Source: a virus
Taxonomy: Duplodnaviria > Heunggongvirae > Uroviricota > Caudoviricetes
IMG/VR virus record: IMGVR_UViG_2521172734_000003
DNA: 34,016 nucleotides
Direction: 5' to 3' (one strand)
The notes beneath the pieces were generated by a model, which was given only the letters and a program-made list of their open reading frames with translations, was not told where the DNA came from and searched no databases. Positions within the stretch are counted from its first letter, which is position 1. Every line of letters begins with the position of its first letter. Made by a program: the position numbers and the translations under genes. Positions 4,417 through 16,539 of the stretch are shown here, piece by piece.

Positions 4417-4474
4417 AAAAAGGGCGGCAGAGCAGTCACGGAGTAAAACTGATACCGCCAAACGTCACCAGAAA
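4417..4474 (-). ncRNA. dicF: DicF small regulatory RNA (ftsZ-targeting antisense sRNA) with its intrinsic terminator
   Basis: Reverse complement of 4417-4474 reads TTTCTGGTGACGTTTGGCGGTATCAGTTTTACTCCGTGACTGCTCTGCCGCCCTTTTT, which matches the DicF sequence as I recall it; located between ydfC and dicB as in Qin. Confidence 0.8.
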
Positions 4475-9899: not shown

Positions 9900-10802
9900 A
9901 TGACCACTATTACCAAAGAACGTATTGAATTGTTCATTAAAAATCCGCTTGAAAACGGGCTTACCCGTGGTGAACAAATGGAACTGGCACGGATTGCGCT
10001 GGCATCGCTGGAAGCAGATCCAGTTAAACGAGTTAACTCAGATCAGATGCGCCGAGTCTGCTTAGAAGCTAATCGCCATTTAGATAAATATGACGCGATG
10101 GCGAAAGAGGTAAATAAGTTGCTTGGACGCATCGCCCCGCCAGCGCCGGTAGTGCCGGAAGAAGCAACTCCGGAAAACGTAGAAATGCTCTCTGGCTATG
10201 TTTCCACGTACAAATTAACCGATAGCGAGCGCGATATTGCTGCCGAAATATGGAACGCCTGCCGCACCGCCATGCTTCAGTCCGGAAACTTTCGGGAAAG
10301 CAAGAATTCGTCAACCAATAATTTTCGGGAAATCCCGGAAGCGTCAACCAGCTCTCCGGTAACTCCGGCTCTTCTGCCTGGTGGTTTCACCATTGAGGAG
10401 GCGAAGGAATTACATGAAGACCTGGTACGCAGCCACATAAGCAAGGCCTTAAGTGGCGAAAAGATGAAAAAGAAAGATCGCGATGCTGATTTGCGCTGGA
10501 TTCATGGCGTTATAGTTCAGGCAGCGTGGTTTGTAAAAGCATCACTGGAGCAGAATGCACTATCGGGCAACTATCCGGTAACTCCGGATAGTTGGATAAG
10601 CTGTAGTGAGCGAATGCCGGATACCAAAACAGCCGTTCTTGTTGCCAGGGAGTTTGACAGGAAAGGTGACTGGCGAATGAAATGGGCGACTTACATCCCG
10701 GGTCATCCTGACGCTAATGATGGGTGGATAATACCTGGTGCGTCGTGGATACCATCACACTGGATGCCTCTACCAGAACCGCCGCAGGAGGTGCGCCAAT
10801 GA
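9900..10802 (+). CDS. Phage protein with C-terminal DUF551-like Trp/Pro-rich domain (300 aa)
   Basis: C-terminal WISCSERMPDTKTAVLV...GWIIPGASWIPSHWMPLPEPP resembles DUF551 as I recall it; good SD (AAGGAG). Confidence 0.55.
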   Translation: MTTITKERIELFIKNPLENGLTRGEQMELARIALASLEADPVKRVNSDQMRRVCLEANRHLDKYDAMAKEVNKLLGRIAPPAPVVPEEATPENVEMLSGYVSTYKLTDSERDIAAEIWNACRTAMLQSGNFRESKNSSTNNFREIPEASTSSPVTPALLPGGFTIEEAKELHEDLVRSHISKALSGEKMKKKDRDADLRWIHGVIVQAAWFVKASLEQNALSGNYPVTPDSWISCSERMPDTKTAVLVAREFDRKGDWRMKWATYIPGHPDANDGWIIPGASWIPSHWMPLPEPPQEVRQ

Positions 10803-10882
10803 ACTGGCCTGAAGCATTTGCAATTACAGGCGTTGCTATGGCTATAGCTTTTTTAGTATATGTTATTTGTCGGTGGGGGTAA
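10799..10882 (+). CDS. Small hydrophobic peptide (27 aa) MNWPEAFAITGVAMAIAFLVYVICRWG
   Basis: Not in ORF track; ATG overlaps the upstream stop (ATGA); single predicted TM helix. Could be non-coding. Confidence 0.35.
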   Translation: MNWPEAFAITGVAMAIAFLVYVICRWG

Positions 10883-10917
10883 AAACGTTCGCCGGGATTA
10901 ACACCAAAGGAGGGAAT

Positions 10918-11022
10918 ATGTCGGATGATATATCACTGGCAATGGAAGGTGCGCTGGCTGTTGTTGCTGTTGTGGGCGTTTACTGCCTGGTTGTGTTTTT
11001 GATGGATCGACTAGGGAACTGA
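10918..11022 (+). CDS. Small hydrophobic peptide (34 aa) MSDDISLAMEGALAVVAVVGVYCLVVFLMDRLGN
   Basis: Not in ORF track; AAGGAGGG Shine-Dalgarno 6 nt upstream of ATG; single TM helix; followed by a 22-bp perfect palindrome. Confidence 0.45.
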   Translation: MSDDISLAMEGALAVVAVVGVYCLVVFLMDRLGN

Positions 11023-11268
11023 ATTCATTACGATATGGGAATTCCCATATCGGGTAAAAACGGTTTGCGGTAAAGCGAGAGTTAAGTAGAATTGCAGCGG
11101 GTGCTTGAGGCTATCTGTCTCAGGCATGAACACCAAAAGGCAGATAGAGAAAAGCCCCAGTTAACATTACGCGTCCTGCAAGACGCTTAACATTAATCTG
11201 AGGCCCAATCTATGTCTCACAAATGTAGGTTAGCCTCTTACGTGCCGAAAGGCAAGGAGAAGCAGGCT

Positions 11269-11424
11269 ATGAAGCAGCAAAAGGCGATGTTAATCGCCCT
11301 GATCGTCATCTGTTTAACCGTCATAGTGACGGCACTGGTAACGAGGAAAGACCTCTGCGAGGTACGAATCCGAACCGGCCAGACGGAGGTCGCTGTCTTC
11401 ACAGCTTACGAACCTGAGGAGTAA
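11269..11424 (+). CDS. hok: Hok/Gef-family type I toxin (51 aa, HokD/RelF-like)
   Basis: MKQQKAMLIALIVICLTVIVTALVTRKDLCEVRIRTGQTEVAVFTAYEPEE from the internal Met of the 70-aa ORF; matches recalled HokD; the in-frame upstream extension is probably leader/mok-like, not Hok. Confidence 0.85.
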   Translation: MKQQKAMLIALIVICLTVIVTALVTRKDLCEVRIRTGQTEVAVFTAYEPEE

Positions 11425-11491
11425 GAGACCAGGCGGGGGAGAATCCCTCGCCACCTCTGATGTGTCAGGCATCCTCAACGCACCCGCACTT

Positions 11492-11517
11492 AACCCGCTT
11501 CGGCGGGTTTTGTTTTT
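11492..11517 (+). terminator. Rho-independent terminator downstream of hok
   Basis: AACCCGC-TTCG-GCGGGTT perfect 7-bp stem followed by TTGTTTTT. Confidence 0.7.
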
Positions 11518-11589
11518 CCTGGCATTCTGGTTTACAATTCGCACACCAGCCTGAACAACTGGCACCTGCTGCGCCAGCAGAGACAACCG

Positions 11590-11868
11590 ATGGCGCACGA
11601 TACCAAATTACACAATTCTGATGATTCTGCCGTCTTTGCCAGCAGGCACGGGCGGCGTTCCCGCGCTTTCAAATCTGACTGGTTCCAGCATCCCCCATGC
11701 ACTGAAGAACAGGCCGAGTGGCTAATTCAGTGCTACCGCAGACACGGATACGAGATTAAGAAAGCCCTCAGCCTCGATTATCGTCACTGGATAATCTCCG
11801 TCAGGCTTCCTTACTCCGAACGACCACCGCGTCCGTCCCGCACATTCCAGCAACGCATCTGGAGGTAA
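11590..11868 (+). CDS. Hypothetical protein (92 aa), in the position of Qin rem
   Basis: ORF between hok and the DUF968 gene, as rem is in Qin; identity not verified. Confidence 0.45.
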   Translation: MAHDTKLHNSDDSAVFASRHGRRSRAFKSDWFQHPPCTEEQAEWLIQCYRRHGYEIKKALSLDYRHWIISVRLPYSERPPRPSRTFQQRIWR

Positions 11869-15801: not shown

Positions 15802-15877
15802 GGCCCTTTAGCTCAGTGGTGAGAGCGAGCGACTCATAATCGCCAGGTCGCTGGTTCAAATCCAGCAAGGGCCACCA
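15802..15877 (+). tRNA. tRNA, anticodon CAT (Ile2/lysidine-type, ileZ-like; Met not excluded)
   Basis: Hand-folded cloverleaf: acceptor GGCCCTT/AAGGGCC, D-arm GCTC-AGTGGTGA-GAGC, anticodon loop CTCATAA, T-arm GCTGG-TTCAAAT-CCAGC, 3' CCA encoded. Confidence 0.8.
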
Positions 15878-15884
15878 TCACATA

Positions 15885-15961
15885 CCGCCATTAGCTCATC
15901 AGGAAAGAGCGCCAGCCTTCGAAGCTGGCTGCGCGGGGTTCAAGTCCCCGATGGCGGTCCA
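15885..15961 (+). tRNA. tRNA-Arg, anticodon TCG (argN-like)
   Basis: Acceptor CCGCCAT/ATGGCGG, anticodon stem CCAGC/GCTGG with loop CTTCGAA, T-arm CGGGG-TTCAAGT-CCCCG, CCA encoded. Confidence 0.75.
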
Positions 15962-15974
15962 TTATCTGCATCAT

Positions 15975-16051
15975 GCGTTGTTAGCTCAGCCGGACAGAGC
16001 AATTGCCTTCTAAGCAATCGGTCACTGGTTCGAATCCAGTACAACGCGCCA
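15975..16051 (+). tRNA. tRNA-Arg, anticodon TCT (argO/argU-like)
   Basis: Acceptor GCGTTGT/ACAACGC, D-arm GCTCAGCCGGACAGAGC, anticodon loop CTTCTAA, T-arm CTGG-TTCGAAT-CCAG, CCA encoded; closely resembles recalled argU. Confidence 0.85.
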
Positions 16052-16091: not shown

Positions 16092-16539
16092 AAATGTCTC
16101 ACAATTCAGACGGTTGACAGTTGTCTGGTTTGCGGGGAGTTTGTTAAAAGAAACTGGCATGGTGAATCCCCCTGTGCGGAGGGGCAATCAGCGAGTAGGT
16201 ATATGGGATAATCGCGGATTCAGGTGCTGGTACTGAATTCACCGGGAGGCACCCGGCACCATGCAATGGCACATAGCGCCACTCTCCAGCCCCTCTCCGG
16301 AGGGGCTTTCTTATGGACAAAAAAATCCCGCGCAGGGAGACGCGGGCGGCAAGGAATAAACAACAAAACGTGAAGTAATATTTCAGCTGGCGAATAATAT
16401 CCGACAGTAATCACTCTGCGCAATAGCGCGGCCTTTTCGTATTGCGGGCTATTGTCTCTCTTCTGCCATTGTCCTGTAGCTTCCGGACTTCAGCCCGCTC
16501 CTCATTTTACTCACAATATTATCCCGGCCGGGAGGATTC

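What the first reader, a model, noticed from the sequence alone, without database searches (positions are those of the whole stretch)
10799..11424. Hok toxin preceded by two further small hydrophobic peptides
A HokD-like 51-aa toxin gene (11269-11424) lies in the nin-like region, without the relBE genes that precede hokD in K-12. Immediately upstream are two unannotated single-TM peptides (27 aa at 10799-10882, ATGA-coupled to the preceding gene; 34 aa at 10918-11022 with an AAGGAGGG SD). Three small membrane peptides in about 600 bp suggests a toxin cluster. A Sok-like antisense RNA would be expected on the minus strand across about 11180-11290 but cannot be called by eye.
Basis: partly seen in the sequence, partly recalled or inferred. 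Interest (0 to 1): 0.5.

Follow-up and report, generated by a model that had tools for sequence, protein, structure and literature searches.

The report
Prophage hok/sok plus two micro-genes
This stretch of a lambda-like E. coli prophage holds a complete, already well-known Hok/Sok toxin-antitoxin module, preceded by two real but uncharacterised tiny membrane-protein genes that show no sign of being further toxins.

Summary
The 51-aa ORF (11269-11424) is identical to K-12 HokD. It sits in a complete hok/mok/sok locus (about 11065-11518): a weak promoter, a leader matching Rfam RF01794 at 120 bits, an in-frame 70-aa mok, a 5'-3' tac-fbi lock, a terminator, and a minus-strand Sok gene at 11150-11220. 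This is an allele of hokW-sokW, which has been shown experimentally to be a type I TA system.

Both upstream peptides are real genes:
- **27-aa ORF:** it belongs to a conserved, almost never annotated family (M-x-WPEAF...RWG). Its ATG always overlaps the stop (ATGA) of whatever gene precedes it. It occurs with and without hok. pN/pS is 0.27.
- **34-aa ORF:** it is annotated in RefSeq as a hypothetical protein. It was reported as the translated gene XECs145 in EHEC Sakai and is heavily ribosome-covered in uninduced cells. A 29-aa sister type has Ribo-RET support in BL21.

Neither peptide has a detectable antisense RNA or a sequestered ribosome-binding site, so the "toxin cluster" reading is not supported. 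One question stays open: the 34/29-aa family almost always lies directly upstream of hok.

The parts
9900..10802 (+). DUF551-domain gene (300 aa). Its C-terminal codons (PQEV) supply the SD for the next ORF. Given as context.
   Evidence: Pfam PF04448, E=9.8e-20; ORF list
10787..10791 (+). GGAGG Shine-Dalgarno for the 27-aa ORF, 7 nt before its ATG
   Evidence: Read from the sequence. An equivalent GAGGTG or AAGGTG sits before every homologue.
10799..10882 (+). 27-aa single-TM micro-ORF (MNWPEAFAITGVAMAIAFLVYVICRWG), with its ATG overlapping the upstream gene's stop as ATGA. Member of the 'WPEAF' family.
   Evidence: At least 476 relatives in viral contigs. All 19 peptide variants recovered are ATGA-coupled, behind different upstream genes. 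pN/pS is 0.27 in frame against 0.98 and 1.76 in the shifted frames.
10877..10887 (+). Left copy of the 11-bp direct repeat GGGTAAAAACG that flanks the 34-aa cassette
   Evidence: the repeat finder family D6. 933W has a single copy and lacks the cassette.
10907..10914 (+). AAGGAGGG Shine-Dalgarno of the 34-aa ORF
   Evidence: Sequence; mostly unpaired in the minimum-free-energy fold
10918..11022 (+). 34-aa single-TM ORF (MSDDISLAMEGALAVVAVVGVYCLVVFLMDRLGN). Corresponds to RefSeq WP_001278454.1, ECs_5710 and XECs145.
   Evidence: Annotated in RefSeq. RIBOseq RCV 4.35 and coverage 0.99 in EHEC Sakai. Within-type pN/pS is about 0.15-0.3. The 29-aa sister type has Ribo-RET support in BL21.
11031..11052 (.). 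Perfect 22-bp palindrome CGATATGGGAATTCCCATATCG between the 34-aa ORF and the hok promoter. Function unknown.
   Evidence: the repeat finder I5. Unique in the window, with 0 expected by chance. Forms a 9-bp hairpin in the fold. Also present upstream of hok in loci without the 34-aa ORF.
11052..11062 (+). Right copy of the direct repeat GGGTAAAAACG. This is the left boundary of the shared hok module.
   Evidence: Homology with most E. coli hok loci starts at window 11052-11082.
11065..11092 (+). Weak hok promoter: TTGCGG, 16 nt, TAGAAT. Transcription is inferred to start at 11099.
   Evidence: Permissive hexamer scan, 8 of 12 matches. Position 1 of the Rfam model falls at 11099.
11099..11518 (+). 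Full-length hok mRNA: leader, mok/hok, fbi and terminator
   Evidence: Rfam RF01794, 120.1 bits against a gathering score of 59, over 11099-11274. Fold z = -7.7. 93% identical to the 933W hokW locus.
11099..11110 (+). tac element (GGGUGCUUGAGG) at the 5' end of the mRNA
   Evidence: Pairs with 11473-11485 in the minimum-free-energy fold of the full-length RNA. Pairs with AAGCCCC (ucb) in the Rfam consensus structure.
11150..11220 (-). Sok antisense RNA (about 71 nt): a 14-nt single-stranded 5' tail, a long hairpin, then UUUUC
   Evidence: Maps onto the sokW annotated in 933W. Fold -29.2 kcal/mol, z = -4.9.
11227..11255 (-). Sok promoter: -35 TTGCCT (11255-11250), 17 nt, -10 TAACCT (11232-11227)
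   Evidence: Read from the sequence. Identical to 933W. Conserved in 123 of 152 distinct hok loci. The sokW promoter has been tested by mutation (PMC8621323).
11212..11424 (+). mok reading frame (70 aa, in frame with hok, as in mokW and mokC)
   Evidence: ORF list. 933W annotation of mokW. An in-frame 70-aa mok is present in 128 of 152 distinct loci.
11269..11424 (+). hok toxin gene (51 aa), identical to K-12 HokD
   Evidence: Pfam PF01848, E=1.2e-23. PHROG 251, E=2.8e-33. 51/51 identity.
11473..11485 (+). fbi element (CCUCAACGCACCC), which pairs with tac
   Evidence: Minimum-free-energy fold
11492..11518 (+). Intrinsic terminator of the hok mRNA (AACCCGC-TTCG-GCGGGTT followed by a T run)
   Evidence: Terminator scan

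Best explanation
The interval holds three independent elements, not one toxin cluster.

**1. A complete hok/mok/sok type I toxin-antitoxin locus.**
- The hok mRNA is made from a weak promoter.
- It is held inert by pairing between its 5' tac element and its 3' fbi element.
- By analogy with R1 hok, 3' trimming frees the 5' end. The RNA then refolds, so that mok, and through it hok, can be translated.
- The abundant, unstable 71-nt Sok RNA pairs with the mok start region and blocks translation.
- When Sok decays, for example after prophage induction, Hok is made and damages the inner membrane. This was shown for hokW-sokW.

**2. A 27-codon micro-gene of the 'WPEAF' family.** It is translated by termination-reinitiation (ATGA overlap) from the DUF551 gene. 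It is therefore expressed together with the phage early operon and gives a single-pass inner-membrane peptide.

**3. A 34-codon cassette led by its own SD.** It is bounded by an 11-bp direct repeat and behaves like a phage 'moron'. It is transcribed and efficiently translated in the uninduced lysogen and gives a second single-pass peptide.

Both peptides most likely act as non-lethal small membrane proteins that bind some larger membrane component. Their targets are unknown.

**Shown here:** the anatomy, conservation, coding selection and family membership.
**Shown by others:** translation of the 34-aa family, and the function of hokW-sokW.
**Inferred:** the mRNA processing and refolding steps, the membrane location, and the non-toxic role of the peptides.
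For: **hok locus**
- Pfam and PHROG hits.
- Identity to HokD.
- Full-length Rfam sok/hok-leader hit, 120 bits.
- tac-fbi pairing, with fold z = -7.7.
- Terminator.
- Sok RNA shape.
- Sok promoter identical to 933W and conserved in 123 of 152 distinct loci; in-frame mok in 128 of 152.
- 933W annotates mokW, hokW and sokW at the homologous places.
- hokW-sokW has been shown to be a type I TA that aids lysis after induction (PMC8621323).

**27-aa ORF**
- At about 70% DNA identity the 933W copy keeps the same length, the SD and the ATGA overlap, although it follows a different upstream gene.
- The same holds in BP-4795, P1-like SJ46 and the lytic phage Av-05, all without hok.
- At least 476 viral-contig relatives.
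- pN/pS is 0.27 in frame, against 0.98 and 1.76 out of frame.

**34-aa ORF**
- RefSeq CDS.
- XECs145 RIBOseq: RCV 4.35 in LB and 1.14 in BHI, coverage 0.99.
- A start-codon ATG to GTG change keeps a valid start.
- The sister type (29 aa, 50% identical) keeps an SD built from a different sequence. It has a conserved TTG...CATATT promoter-like motif and a Ribo-RET start-site signal in BL21.
- Within-type pN/pS is 0.15-0.3.
- The cassette is absent from 933W exactly between the two GGGTAAAAACG repeats.
Against: - No transcript or protein data exist for this particular window.
- The Sakai RIBOseq reads may multi-map among several prophage copies.
- The BL21 start-site signal is small (13 counts).
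- No sigma-70-like promoter was found upstream of the type-1 34-aa ORF, so the source of its expression in lysogens is unexplained.
- The 27-aa ORF has no direct translation evidence. It falls below the 93-nt cut-off of the Sakai study.
- 'Non-toxic' is inferred from ribosome occupancy in growing cells, not tested.
- The near-constant adjacency of the 34/29-aa family to hok is not explained by a simple independent-moron model.
Confidence: 0.75

Rival explanations
1. Toxin cluster. One or both upstream peptides are additional type I (Hok-, Ibs- or Sho-like) membrane toxins, each held in check by its own antisense RNA.
For: - Both are short, single-TM and hydrophobic, with GRAVY 1.2-1.3.
- They lie next to a bona fide type I toxin.
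- Two minus-strand promoter-like sites overlap them: TTGCCA-16-CATATT at 10942-10915 and TTTACC-17-TATACT at 10883-10855.
Against: - Two promoter-like sites are no more than shuffled sequence gives (mean 1.0, sd 1.0).
- Neither site is followed by a terminator.
- A transcript from the 10942-10915 site would start just upstream of the SD of the 34-aa ORF and so would not cover it.
- No Rfam match other than sok, even at E<=1.
- The SD of the 34-aa ORF is open.
- The ORF is among the better-translated novel genes in growing Sakai cells.
- The 27-aa ORF is translationally coupled to a 300-aa gene, which is not a type I architecture.
- Synonymous sites vary along both ORFs, which is not expected under an overlapping antisense gene.
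Confidence: 0.08
2. Hok-associated partner. The 34/29-aa family is a functional third component of many hok loci. It could be a membrane peptide that modulates or antagonises Hok. Alternatively, it could be an upstream cistron whose transcription reads into hok and alters hok mRNA folding.
For: - Two subtypes only 50% identical, with between-type pS of 0.6-0.8, both end just upstream of the hok promoter. The distance from the stop codon to the hok +1 is 42 or 76 nt.
- Type-1 copies sit 75-76 nt upstream of the hok +1 in 76 of the 77 viral loci long enough to judge.
- 10 of 10 assembly contexts show hok next.
- Most type-2 copies do too, including BL21.
- The type-2 promoter-like motif has no terminator before hok.
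Against: - Among 80 loci with an identical Hok, only about 25-30 carry the family, so hok works without it. The experimentally studied hokW has none.
- A type-2 copy stands alone between queH and a DUF1971 gene in 43 E. coli genomes.
- The sample is phylogenetically non-independent.
- Adjacency may simply reflect shared descent of one recombining module.
Confidence: 0.15
3. The two small ORFs are chance open frames in a spacer and are not genes.
For: - There is no Pfam, NCBIfam, PHROG or PADLOC family for either.
- The 27-aa ORF is almost never annotated.
Against: - Frame-specific purifying selection.
- ORF length, SD and ATGA coupling are preserved at about 70% DNA identity.
- Ribosome-profiling support exists for both subtypes of the 34-aa family.
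Confidence: 0.02

Closest known systems
hokW-mokW-sokW of Stx phages 933W and Sp5 (type I TA; Plunkett annotation AF125520; Takada et al. 2021, PMC8621323)
   Same: - 93% DNA identity over 11055-11495.
- Same promoter, tac, mok frame, Sok promoter hexamers, fbi and terminator.
- Also prophage-borne.
   Different: - The C-terminal residues of Hok differ (TAYEPEE here, VDYESEK in HokW).
- The single-stranded 5' tail of Sok differs at about 7 of 19 positions.
- Here the locus lies in the nin region and carries the extra 34-aa cassette. In 933W it lies near attR, directly after the 27-aa ORF.
hokD (relF) of the K-12 Qin cryptic prophage
   Same: - Identical 51-aa toxin.
- Same downstream neighbourhood: a DUF968 (ydfU) gene and the Q antiterminator.
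   Different: - K-12 retains homology only from window 11255 onward.
- In K-12 the leader, the mok start and Sok are replaced by relBE.
- The window copy is the intact form.
hok/sok of plasmid R1 (the paradigm)
   Same: - Same architecture as captured by Rfam RF01794.
- tac-fbi closure.
- Sok with a 5' tail plus a hairpin.
   Different: - The paper reports HokW as 44% identical to R1 Hok (PMC8621323).
- mok is in frame with hok here. From my own recollection it is out of frame in R1; an out-of-frame 68-aa mok is also seen in L079-type loci.
XECs145 / ECs_5710 (Hücker et al. 2017, PMC5597208) and Entero67K cluster Escherichia_98807 (PMC11188072)
   Same: - XECs145 is the 34-aa ORF with one substitution (V16I), in the same DUF551, 27-aa, 34-aa, hok block of Sakai prophage Sp6.
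- Escherichia_98807 is the 29-aa sister type lying upstream of hokD in BL21.
   Different: - Those catalogues list the ORFs as translated or conserved but give them no function.
- In what I read, they do not note the link to hok.
- XECs145 was called with a longer, probably wrong, upstream start.
Characterised small single-TM proteins of E. coli and its phages (for example MgtS, AcrZ, CydX, and phage morons in general)
   Same: - Size and a single hydrophobic helix.
- Strong SD or translational coupling.
- Expression in growing cells.
   Different: - No sequence similarity to any of them.
- No partner protein is known.
- This is a resemblance in kind only.

Membership tests
hok/sok type I toxin-antitoxin (Hok/Gef, Rfam RF01794) | A toxin ORF of about 50 aa with the Hok/Gef domain | tested here: met
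   PF01848, E=1.2e-23 and 82.9 bits against a cut-off of 22. PHROG 251, E=2.8e-33. 51/51 identity to K-12 HokD.
hok/sok type I toxin-antitoxin (Hok/Gef, Rfam RF01794) | A structured 5' leader (tac/ucb stem, Sok target hairpin) that fits the family covariance model | tested here: met
   RF01794, 120.1 bits against a gathering score of 59, model positions 1-157 of 157, at 11099-11274
hok/sok type I toxin-antitoxin (Hok/Gef, Rfam RF01794) | An overlapping mok reading frame that starts in the Sok target region | tested here: met
   70-aa ORF at 11212-11424 in frame with hok, as in mokW. Present in 128 of 152 distinct loci. Whether hok translation needs it cannot be tested here.
hok/sok type I toxin-antitoxin (Hok/Gef, Rfam RF01794) | Long-range pairing between 5' tac and 3' fbi that closes the full-length mRNA | tested here: met
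   11099-11110 pairs with 11473-11485 in the minimum-free-energy fold. z = -7.7, with 0 of 100 shuffles folding as well. A crude 3' truncation did not cleanly show the refolded state.
hok/sok type I toxin-antitoxin (Hok/Gef, Rfam RF01794) | A cis-encoded antisense Sok gene with its own promoter and terminator hairpin | tested here: met
   TTGCCT-17-TAACCT at 11255-11227. The 71-nt RNA from 11220 to 11150 has a 14-nt tail, a hairpin and UUUUC. It is collinear with the annotated sokW. The simple consensus scanner did not call the promoter, because its -10 matches only 3 of 6.
hok/sok type I toxin-antitoxin (Hok/Gef, Rfam RF01794) | Toxicity of Hok and neutralisation by Sok | not testable with these tools
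   Shown for the 93%-identical hokW-sokW (PMC8621323). Not tested for this allele.
Type I toxins (as proposed for the 27-aa and 34-aa peptides) | A small hydrophobic membrane peptide | tested here: met
   One TM-competent segment in each peptide
Type I toxins (as proposed for the 27-aa and 34-aa peptides) | A dedicated antisense or base-pairing RNA antitoxin | tested here: not met
   No RNA family hit other than sok at E<=1. Minus-strand promoter-like sites are not above shuffled expectation and lack terminators. Synonymous sites vary freely. A novel, unmodelled sRNA cannot be excluded without RNA-seq.
Type I toxins (as proposed for the 27-aa and 34-aa peptides) | Translation silenced during normal growth (sequestered SD, low ribosome load) | tested here: not met
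   The SD of the 34-aa ORF is open in the fold. XECs145 has RCV 4.35 and coverage 0.99 in LB. The 27-aa ORF is ATGA-coupled to a normal gene.
Type I toxins (as proposed for the 27-aa and 34-aa peptides) | Growth arrest or killing on expression | not testable with these tools
   Needs inducible expression
Phage 'moron' (autonomous accessory cassette expressed from the prophage), for the 34-aa ORF | Present or absent as a discrete block between otherwise collinear relatives | tested here: met
   933W goes from the 27-aa ORF straight to the hok promoter. The block 10888-11062 is bounded by GGGTAAAAACG repeats.
Phage 'moron' (autonomous accessory cassette expressed from the prophage), for the 34-aa ORF | Its own promoter and terminator | tested here: inconclusive
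   Type 2 has a conserved TTG...CATATT motif about 35 nt upstream of its GTG. No promoter was found for type 1 in the window. The palindrome after the ORF lacks a U tract.
Phage 'moron' (autonomous accessory cassette expressed from the prophage), for the 34-aa ORF | Expressed in the uninduced lysogen | tested here: met
   From the literature, not from this window: RNA RPKM 79-121 and ribosome RPKM 150-346 in uninduced Sakai. Multi-mapping between prophage copies is a caveat.

The most novel reading that the evidence does not exclude
The 34/29-aa peptide family is a previously unrecognised third, protein-level component of many prophage hok loci. It would be a lysogen-expressed inner-membrane peptide that tunes or counteracts Hok, or whose transcription reads into and regulates hok. 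On that reading, part of the hok family would be three-component rather than a purely RNA-controlled system.
Probability: 0.12. Interest if true: 0.6.

Novelty: new member of a known kind. Interest (0 to 1): 0.3.

Why it matters
The hok/mok/sok part adds nothing new. It is an intact allele of a textbook system that has already been validated in a sister phage.

The modest value lies in the two micro-genes.
- The 27-aa 'WPEAF' ORF is a widespread coupled cistron under selection. It is missing from the annotation of every phage genome I inspected.
- The 34/29-aa family is translated in lysogens, extremely common in E. coli, and almost always wedged against the hok promoter.

If that adjacency is functional, it would change how prophage hok loci are understood. 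If it is not, these are two more entries for the small-membrane-protein catalogue and for annotation pipelines.

Tried and rejected
I worked around this with alignments (A1-A3).
- The genome-contig scan with the 34/29-aa alignment found no confirmed relative among species representatives.
- The same scan with the 27-aa alignment gave only Escherichia and Shigella, plus tiny contigs that are probably contaminants.
- phmmer of the 34-aa peptide against 1.84 billion representatives gave 7 hits, all near-identical, so there are no distant relatives.
- Pfam, NCBIfam, PHROGs and PADLOC hold no family for either peptide, for the longer alternative-start versions, or for the 29-aa type.
- The consensus promoter scan found neither the hok nor the Sok promoter. 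I located both by homology and with a permissive scan.
- No plus-strand promoter was found for the type-1 34-aa ORF.
- Folding a 3'-truncated hok mRNA did not cleanly reproduce the tac-ucb refolded state, because the cut point is a guess. I relied on the Rfam consensus structure instead.
- The idea that the 92-aa ORF at 11590-11868 is Rem was rejected: there is no similarity.
- The CFT073 small-protein preprint gives no sequences and no held supplements, so I could not link it to these ORFs.
- I considered an integron-cassette or MITE reading of the repeat-flanked 34-aa block and dropped it, because there is no attC-like core or terminal inverted repeats.
Full report
**Observation**

- The 27-aa ORF (10799-10882) starts with an ATG that overlaps the TGA of a 300-aa DUF551 gene (9900-10802; Pfam E=9.8e-20). 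A GGAGG sits 7 nt upstream.
- The 34-aa ORF (10918-11022) follows AAGGAGGG.
- The 51-aa ORF (11269-11424) is a Hok/Gef protein (PF01848, E=1.2e-23; PHROG 251). It is identical, 51 of 51, to K-12 HokD.
- Each peptide has one TM-competent segment.

The surroundings are a lambdoid nin-type region. A repressor/Cro pair, YdaT, a replisome organiser, and the DUF977, DUF4014 and DUF551 genes lie upstream. A 92-aa ORF, DUF968, RusA and Q lie downstream.

**The hok locus is complete and already known**
- Rfam's sok/hok-leader model matches 11099-11274 end to end, at 120 bits against a gathering score of 59.
- The full-length RNA 11099-11518 folds with z = -7.7. Its first 12 nt (GGGUGCUUGAGG, tac) pair with 11473-11485 (fbi), just before an intrinsic terminator at 11492-11509.
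- A 70-aa mok frame (11212-11424) runs in frame into hok, as annotated for mokW in phage 933W.
- The window is 93% identical to the 933W hokW locus over 11055-11495.
- By alignment, the annotated sokW maps to window 11150-11220 on the minus strand.
- The sokW promoter hexamers are TTGCCT, 17 nt, TAACCT (11255-11227). They are identical in the window and are conserved in 123 of 152 distinct hok loci that I collected.
- The predicted Sok RNA has a 14-nt free 5' tail, a long hairpin and UUUUC.
- hokW-sokW has been shown to be a type I TA. Its antitoxin action depends partly on RNase III and Hfq. After mitomycin C its Sok disappears, Hok appears, and lysis and phage release improve (PMC8621323).
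- K-12 hokD shares homology only from window 11255 onward, with relBE in place of the leader.
The RNA lies at 11150-11220, and only its promoter reaches 11255.

**The 27-aa ORF is a real, conserved, nearly unannotated micro-gene**
- 933W has a 27-aa homologue (MTWPEAFANVGTVMAVVLVVYSICRWR) at about 70% DNA identity. It is again ATGA-overlapped, but behind a different gene (L0139), and it lies directly before the hokW promoter.
- Further homologues, all ATGA-coupled and preceded by a GAGGTG-like SD, occur without any hok: in BP-4795 (before DUF4222, xis and int), in the P1-like Salmonella phage SJ46, and in the lytic phage Av-05.
- A viral-contig scan confirmed at least 476 relatives.
- The 84 copies I examined give 19 peptide variants.
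- Against the window copy, diverged members show pS of 0.6-0.8 but pN of 0.16-0.24. The pooled pN/pS is 0.27 in frame, against 0.98 and 1.76 in the shifted frames. Variable sites by codon position number 10, 11 and 21.
- The ORF is unannotated in every phage record I inspected. The big protein collection holds it from only three contigs.
- It matches no Pfam, NCBIfam, PHROG or PADLOC family.
- Among species-representative genomes, credible hits are confined to Escherichia and Shigella.
- It travels with the end of the 'ea/DUF551' accessory operon, not with hok.

**The 34-aa ORF is also real, and it is not unannotated**
- RefSeq calls it WP_001278454.1, or ECs_5710 in Sakai.
- The exact protein is indexed in 8485 blocks of the assembly collection.
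- In Hücker et al. 2017 its V16I variant is 'XECs145', in the same DUF551, 27-aa, 34-aa, hok block of Sakai prophage Sp6. The values are:

| Condition | RNA RPKM | Ribosome RPKM | RCV | Coverage |
|---|---|---|---|---|
| LB | 79 | 346 | 4.35 | 0.99 |
| BHI control | 121 | 150 | 1.14 | 0.84 |
| BHI stress | 73.3 | 1.1 | 0.01 | 0.37 |

  (multi-mapping between prophage copies is a caveat.)
- A second subtype, 50% identical, is a 29-aa ORF: M-LVLKCALAIAAVMAIYCLVIVLM[DN]HLSD. It starts at a conserved GTG behind GGGAGG or CAGGAG. A TTG...CATATT promoter-like motif is invariant across otherwise diverged flanks.
- That exact GTG-start ORF is listed with a Ribo-RET start-site signal in BL21: 13 start-site (TIS) counts and 38 footprint (RPF) counts. 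Its cluster, Escherichia_98807, has dN/dS of 0.46 (PMC11188072). In BL21 it also sits just upstream of hokD.
- Within-subtype pN/pS is about 0.15-0.3.
- An ATG to GTG change at the start codon in one lineage keeps a valid start.
- phmmer against 1.84 billion representatives finds only near-identical proteins, so the family is narrow.

**Architecture of the spacer**
- The 34-aa block is flanked by an 11-bp direct repeat, GGGTAAAAACG (10877 and 11052).
- 933W has a single copy of the repeat and no block. The cassette is therefore a discrete insertion or deletion.
- A perfect 22-bp palindrome (11031-11052) lies between the ORF and the hok promoter. It is unique in the window, and it recurs upstream of hok in loci that lack the ORF.
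- In O55:H7 strains the ORF is tandemly duplicated. The second copy starts with TTG and has no SD.

**Is this a toxin cluster?** The evidence says no.
- No RNA family other than sok is detected, even at E<=1.
- The two minus-strand promoter-like sites are no more than shuffled sequence gives, and neither is followed by a terminator.
- The SD of the 34-aa ORF is unpaired in the fold.
- The ORF is well translated in growing cells.
- The 27-aa ORF is a coupled downstream cistron.
- Hok does not need either peptide. Among 80 viral loci encoding the identical Hok, 7 carry type 1, roughly 18-25 carry type 2 or remnants of it, about 16 have only the 27-aa ORF, and the rest have other contexts. The experimentally studied hokW has no 34-aa ORF.

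**What remains unexplained**
- The 34/29-aa family is almost always immediately upstream of hok. The distance from its stop codon to the hok +1 is 76 nt in type 1 and 42 nt in type 2.
- The one exception is a stand-alone type-2 copy between queH and a DUF1971 gene, present in 43 E. coli genomes. There, homology with hok-bearing alleles ends 11 nt after the stop codon.
- This could be shared descent of a recombining module, or a functional link. I give the functional reading about 0.12-0.15.

**Verdict**
- The hok part is already known.
- The peptides are genuine small membrane-protein genes of unknown function. One of them has already been catalogued by ribosome profiling.
- Interest is modest.

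Noticed in passing
window 11031-11052: A perfect 22-bp palindrome, CGATATGGGAATTCCCATATCG, containing an EcoRI site. It lies between the 34-aa ORF and the hok -35 and is unique in the window. The same palindrome sits upstream of hok in loci that lack the 34-aa ORF (L270, L331). It has no U tract, so it is not an obvious terminator. It could be a protein-binding or RNA-processing site.
   Followed up: partly
window 10877-10887 and 11052-11062: An 11-bp direct repeat, GGGTAAAAACG, brackets the 34-aa cassette. 933W has one copy and no cassette. This suggests either insertion with target duplication or deletion mediated by the repeat.
   Followed up: partly
L003 (E. coli O55:H7 RM12579) 1719-1823 and 1826-1930: The 34-aa ORF is tandemly duplicated with a 107-bp period. 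The second copy starts with TTG and has lost the SD, yet PGAP annotates both copies as the same protein.
   Followed up: partly
L207 1213-1302 (E. coli chromosome, between queH and a DUF1971 gene): A stand-alone copy of the 29-aa type-2 ORF, with its conserved promoter-like leader but no hok. It is unannotated and present in 43 complete E. coli genomes. In other strains the same locus carries the ORF plus hok (L194), or only the last ~35 nt of the ORF plus hok (L259).
   Followed up: partly
L254 463-642 (viral contig IMGVR_UViG_2531839584_000011): A 59-aa ORF with two predicted TM segments ends 90 nt upstream of the hok +1 in 15 of the 80 sampled hok loci. It matches no Pfam family. By my count, about 58 of the 80 hok loci have some small hydrophobic ORF ending within about 100 nt upstream of the hok promoter. 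The sample is not phylogenetically independent.
   Followed up: partly
L079 1859-2170: A second hok regulatory type encodes the identical Hok protein. Its mok is out of frame (68 aa), its Sok-target hairpin is 21 nt shorter, and its Sok -10 is closer to consensus (TAATCT). This probably defines a separate Sok specificity group.
   Followed up: no
window 11590-11868: A 92-aa ORF (PHROG 1212, unknown function) occupies the position that rem holds next to hokD in K-12, but it has no similarity to Rem. Some relatives carry both genes (L349).
   Followed up: partly
window 10724-10882; L001 2295-2765: The frame of the 27-aa ORF stays open back to a GTG at 10724, overlapping the end of the DUF551 gene. 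The annotated start of 933W L0139 uses the equivalent GTG. That start is probably an annotation artefact, with the real start an ATG overlapping the stop of L0140.
   Followed up: no
L339 1544-1627 (Sakai prophage Sp6): The Sakai copy of the 27-aa ORF has an Asp in the middle of the hydrophobic segment (MIWPEAFAITGVAIAIDFLVYVICRWG). This copy may be decaying.
   Followed up: no
window 4422-4473 (-), 15802-16048 (+), 16128-16318 (+): A DicF sRNA (76.7 bits), three tRNA genes, and an STnc100 sRNA (138 bits). Together they mark this as a Qin/Stx-phage-like lambdoid prophage. I did not check whether a toxin gene follows the tRNAs.
   Followed up: no
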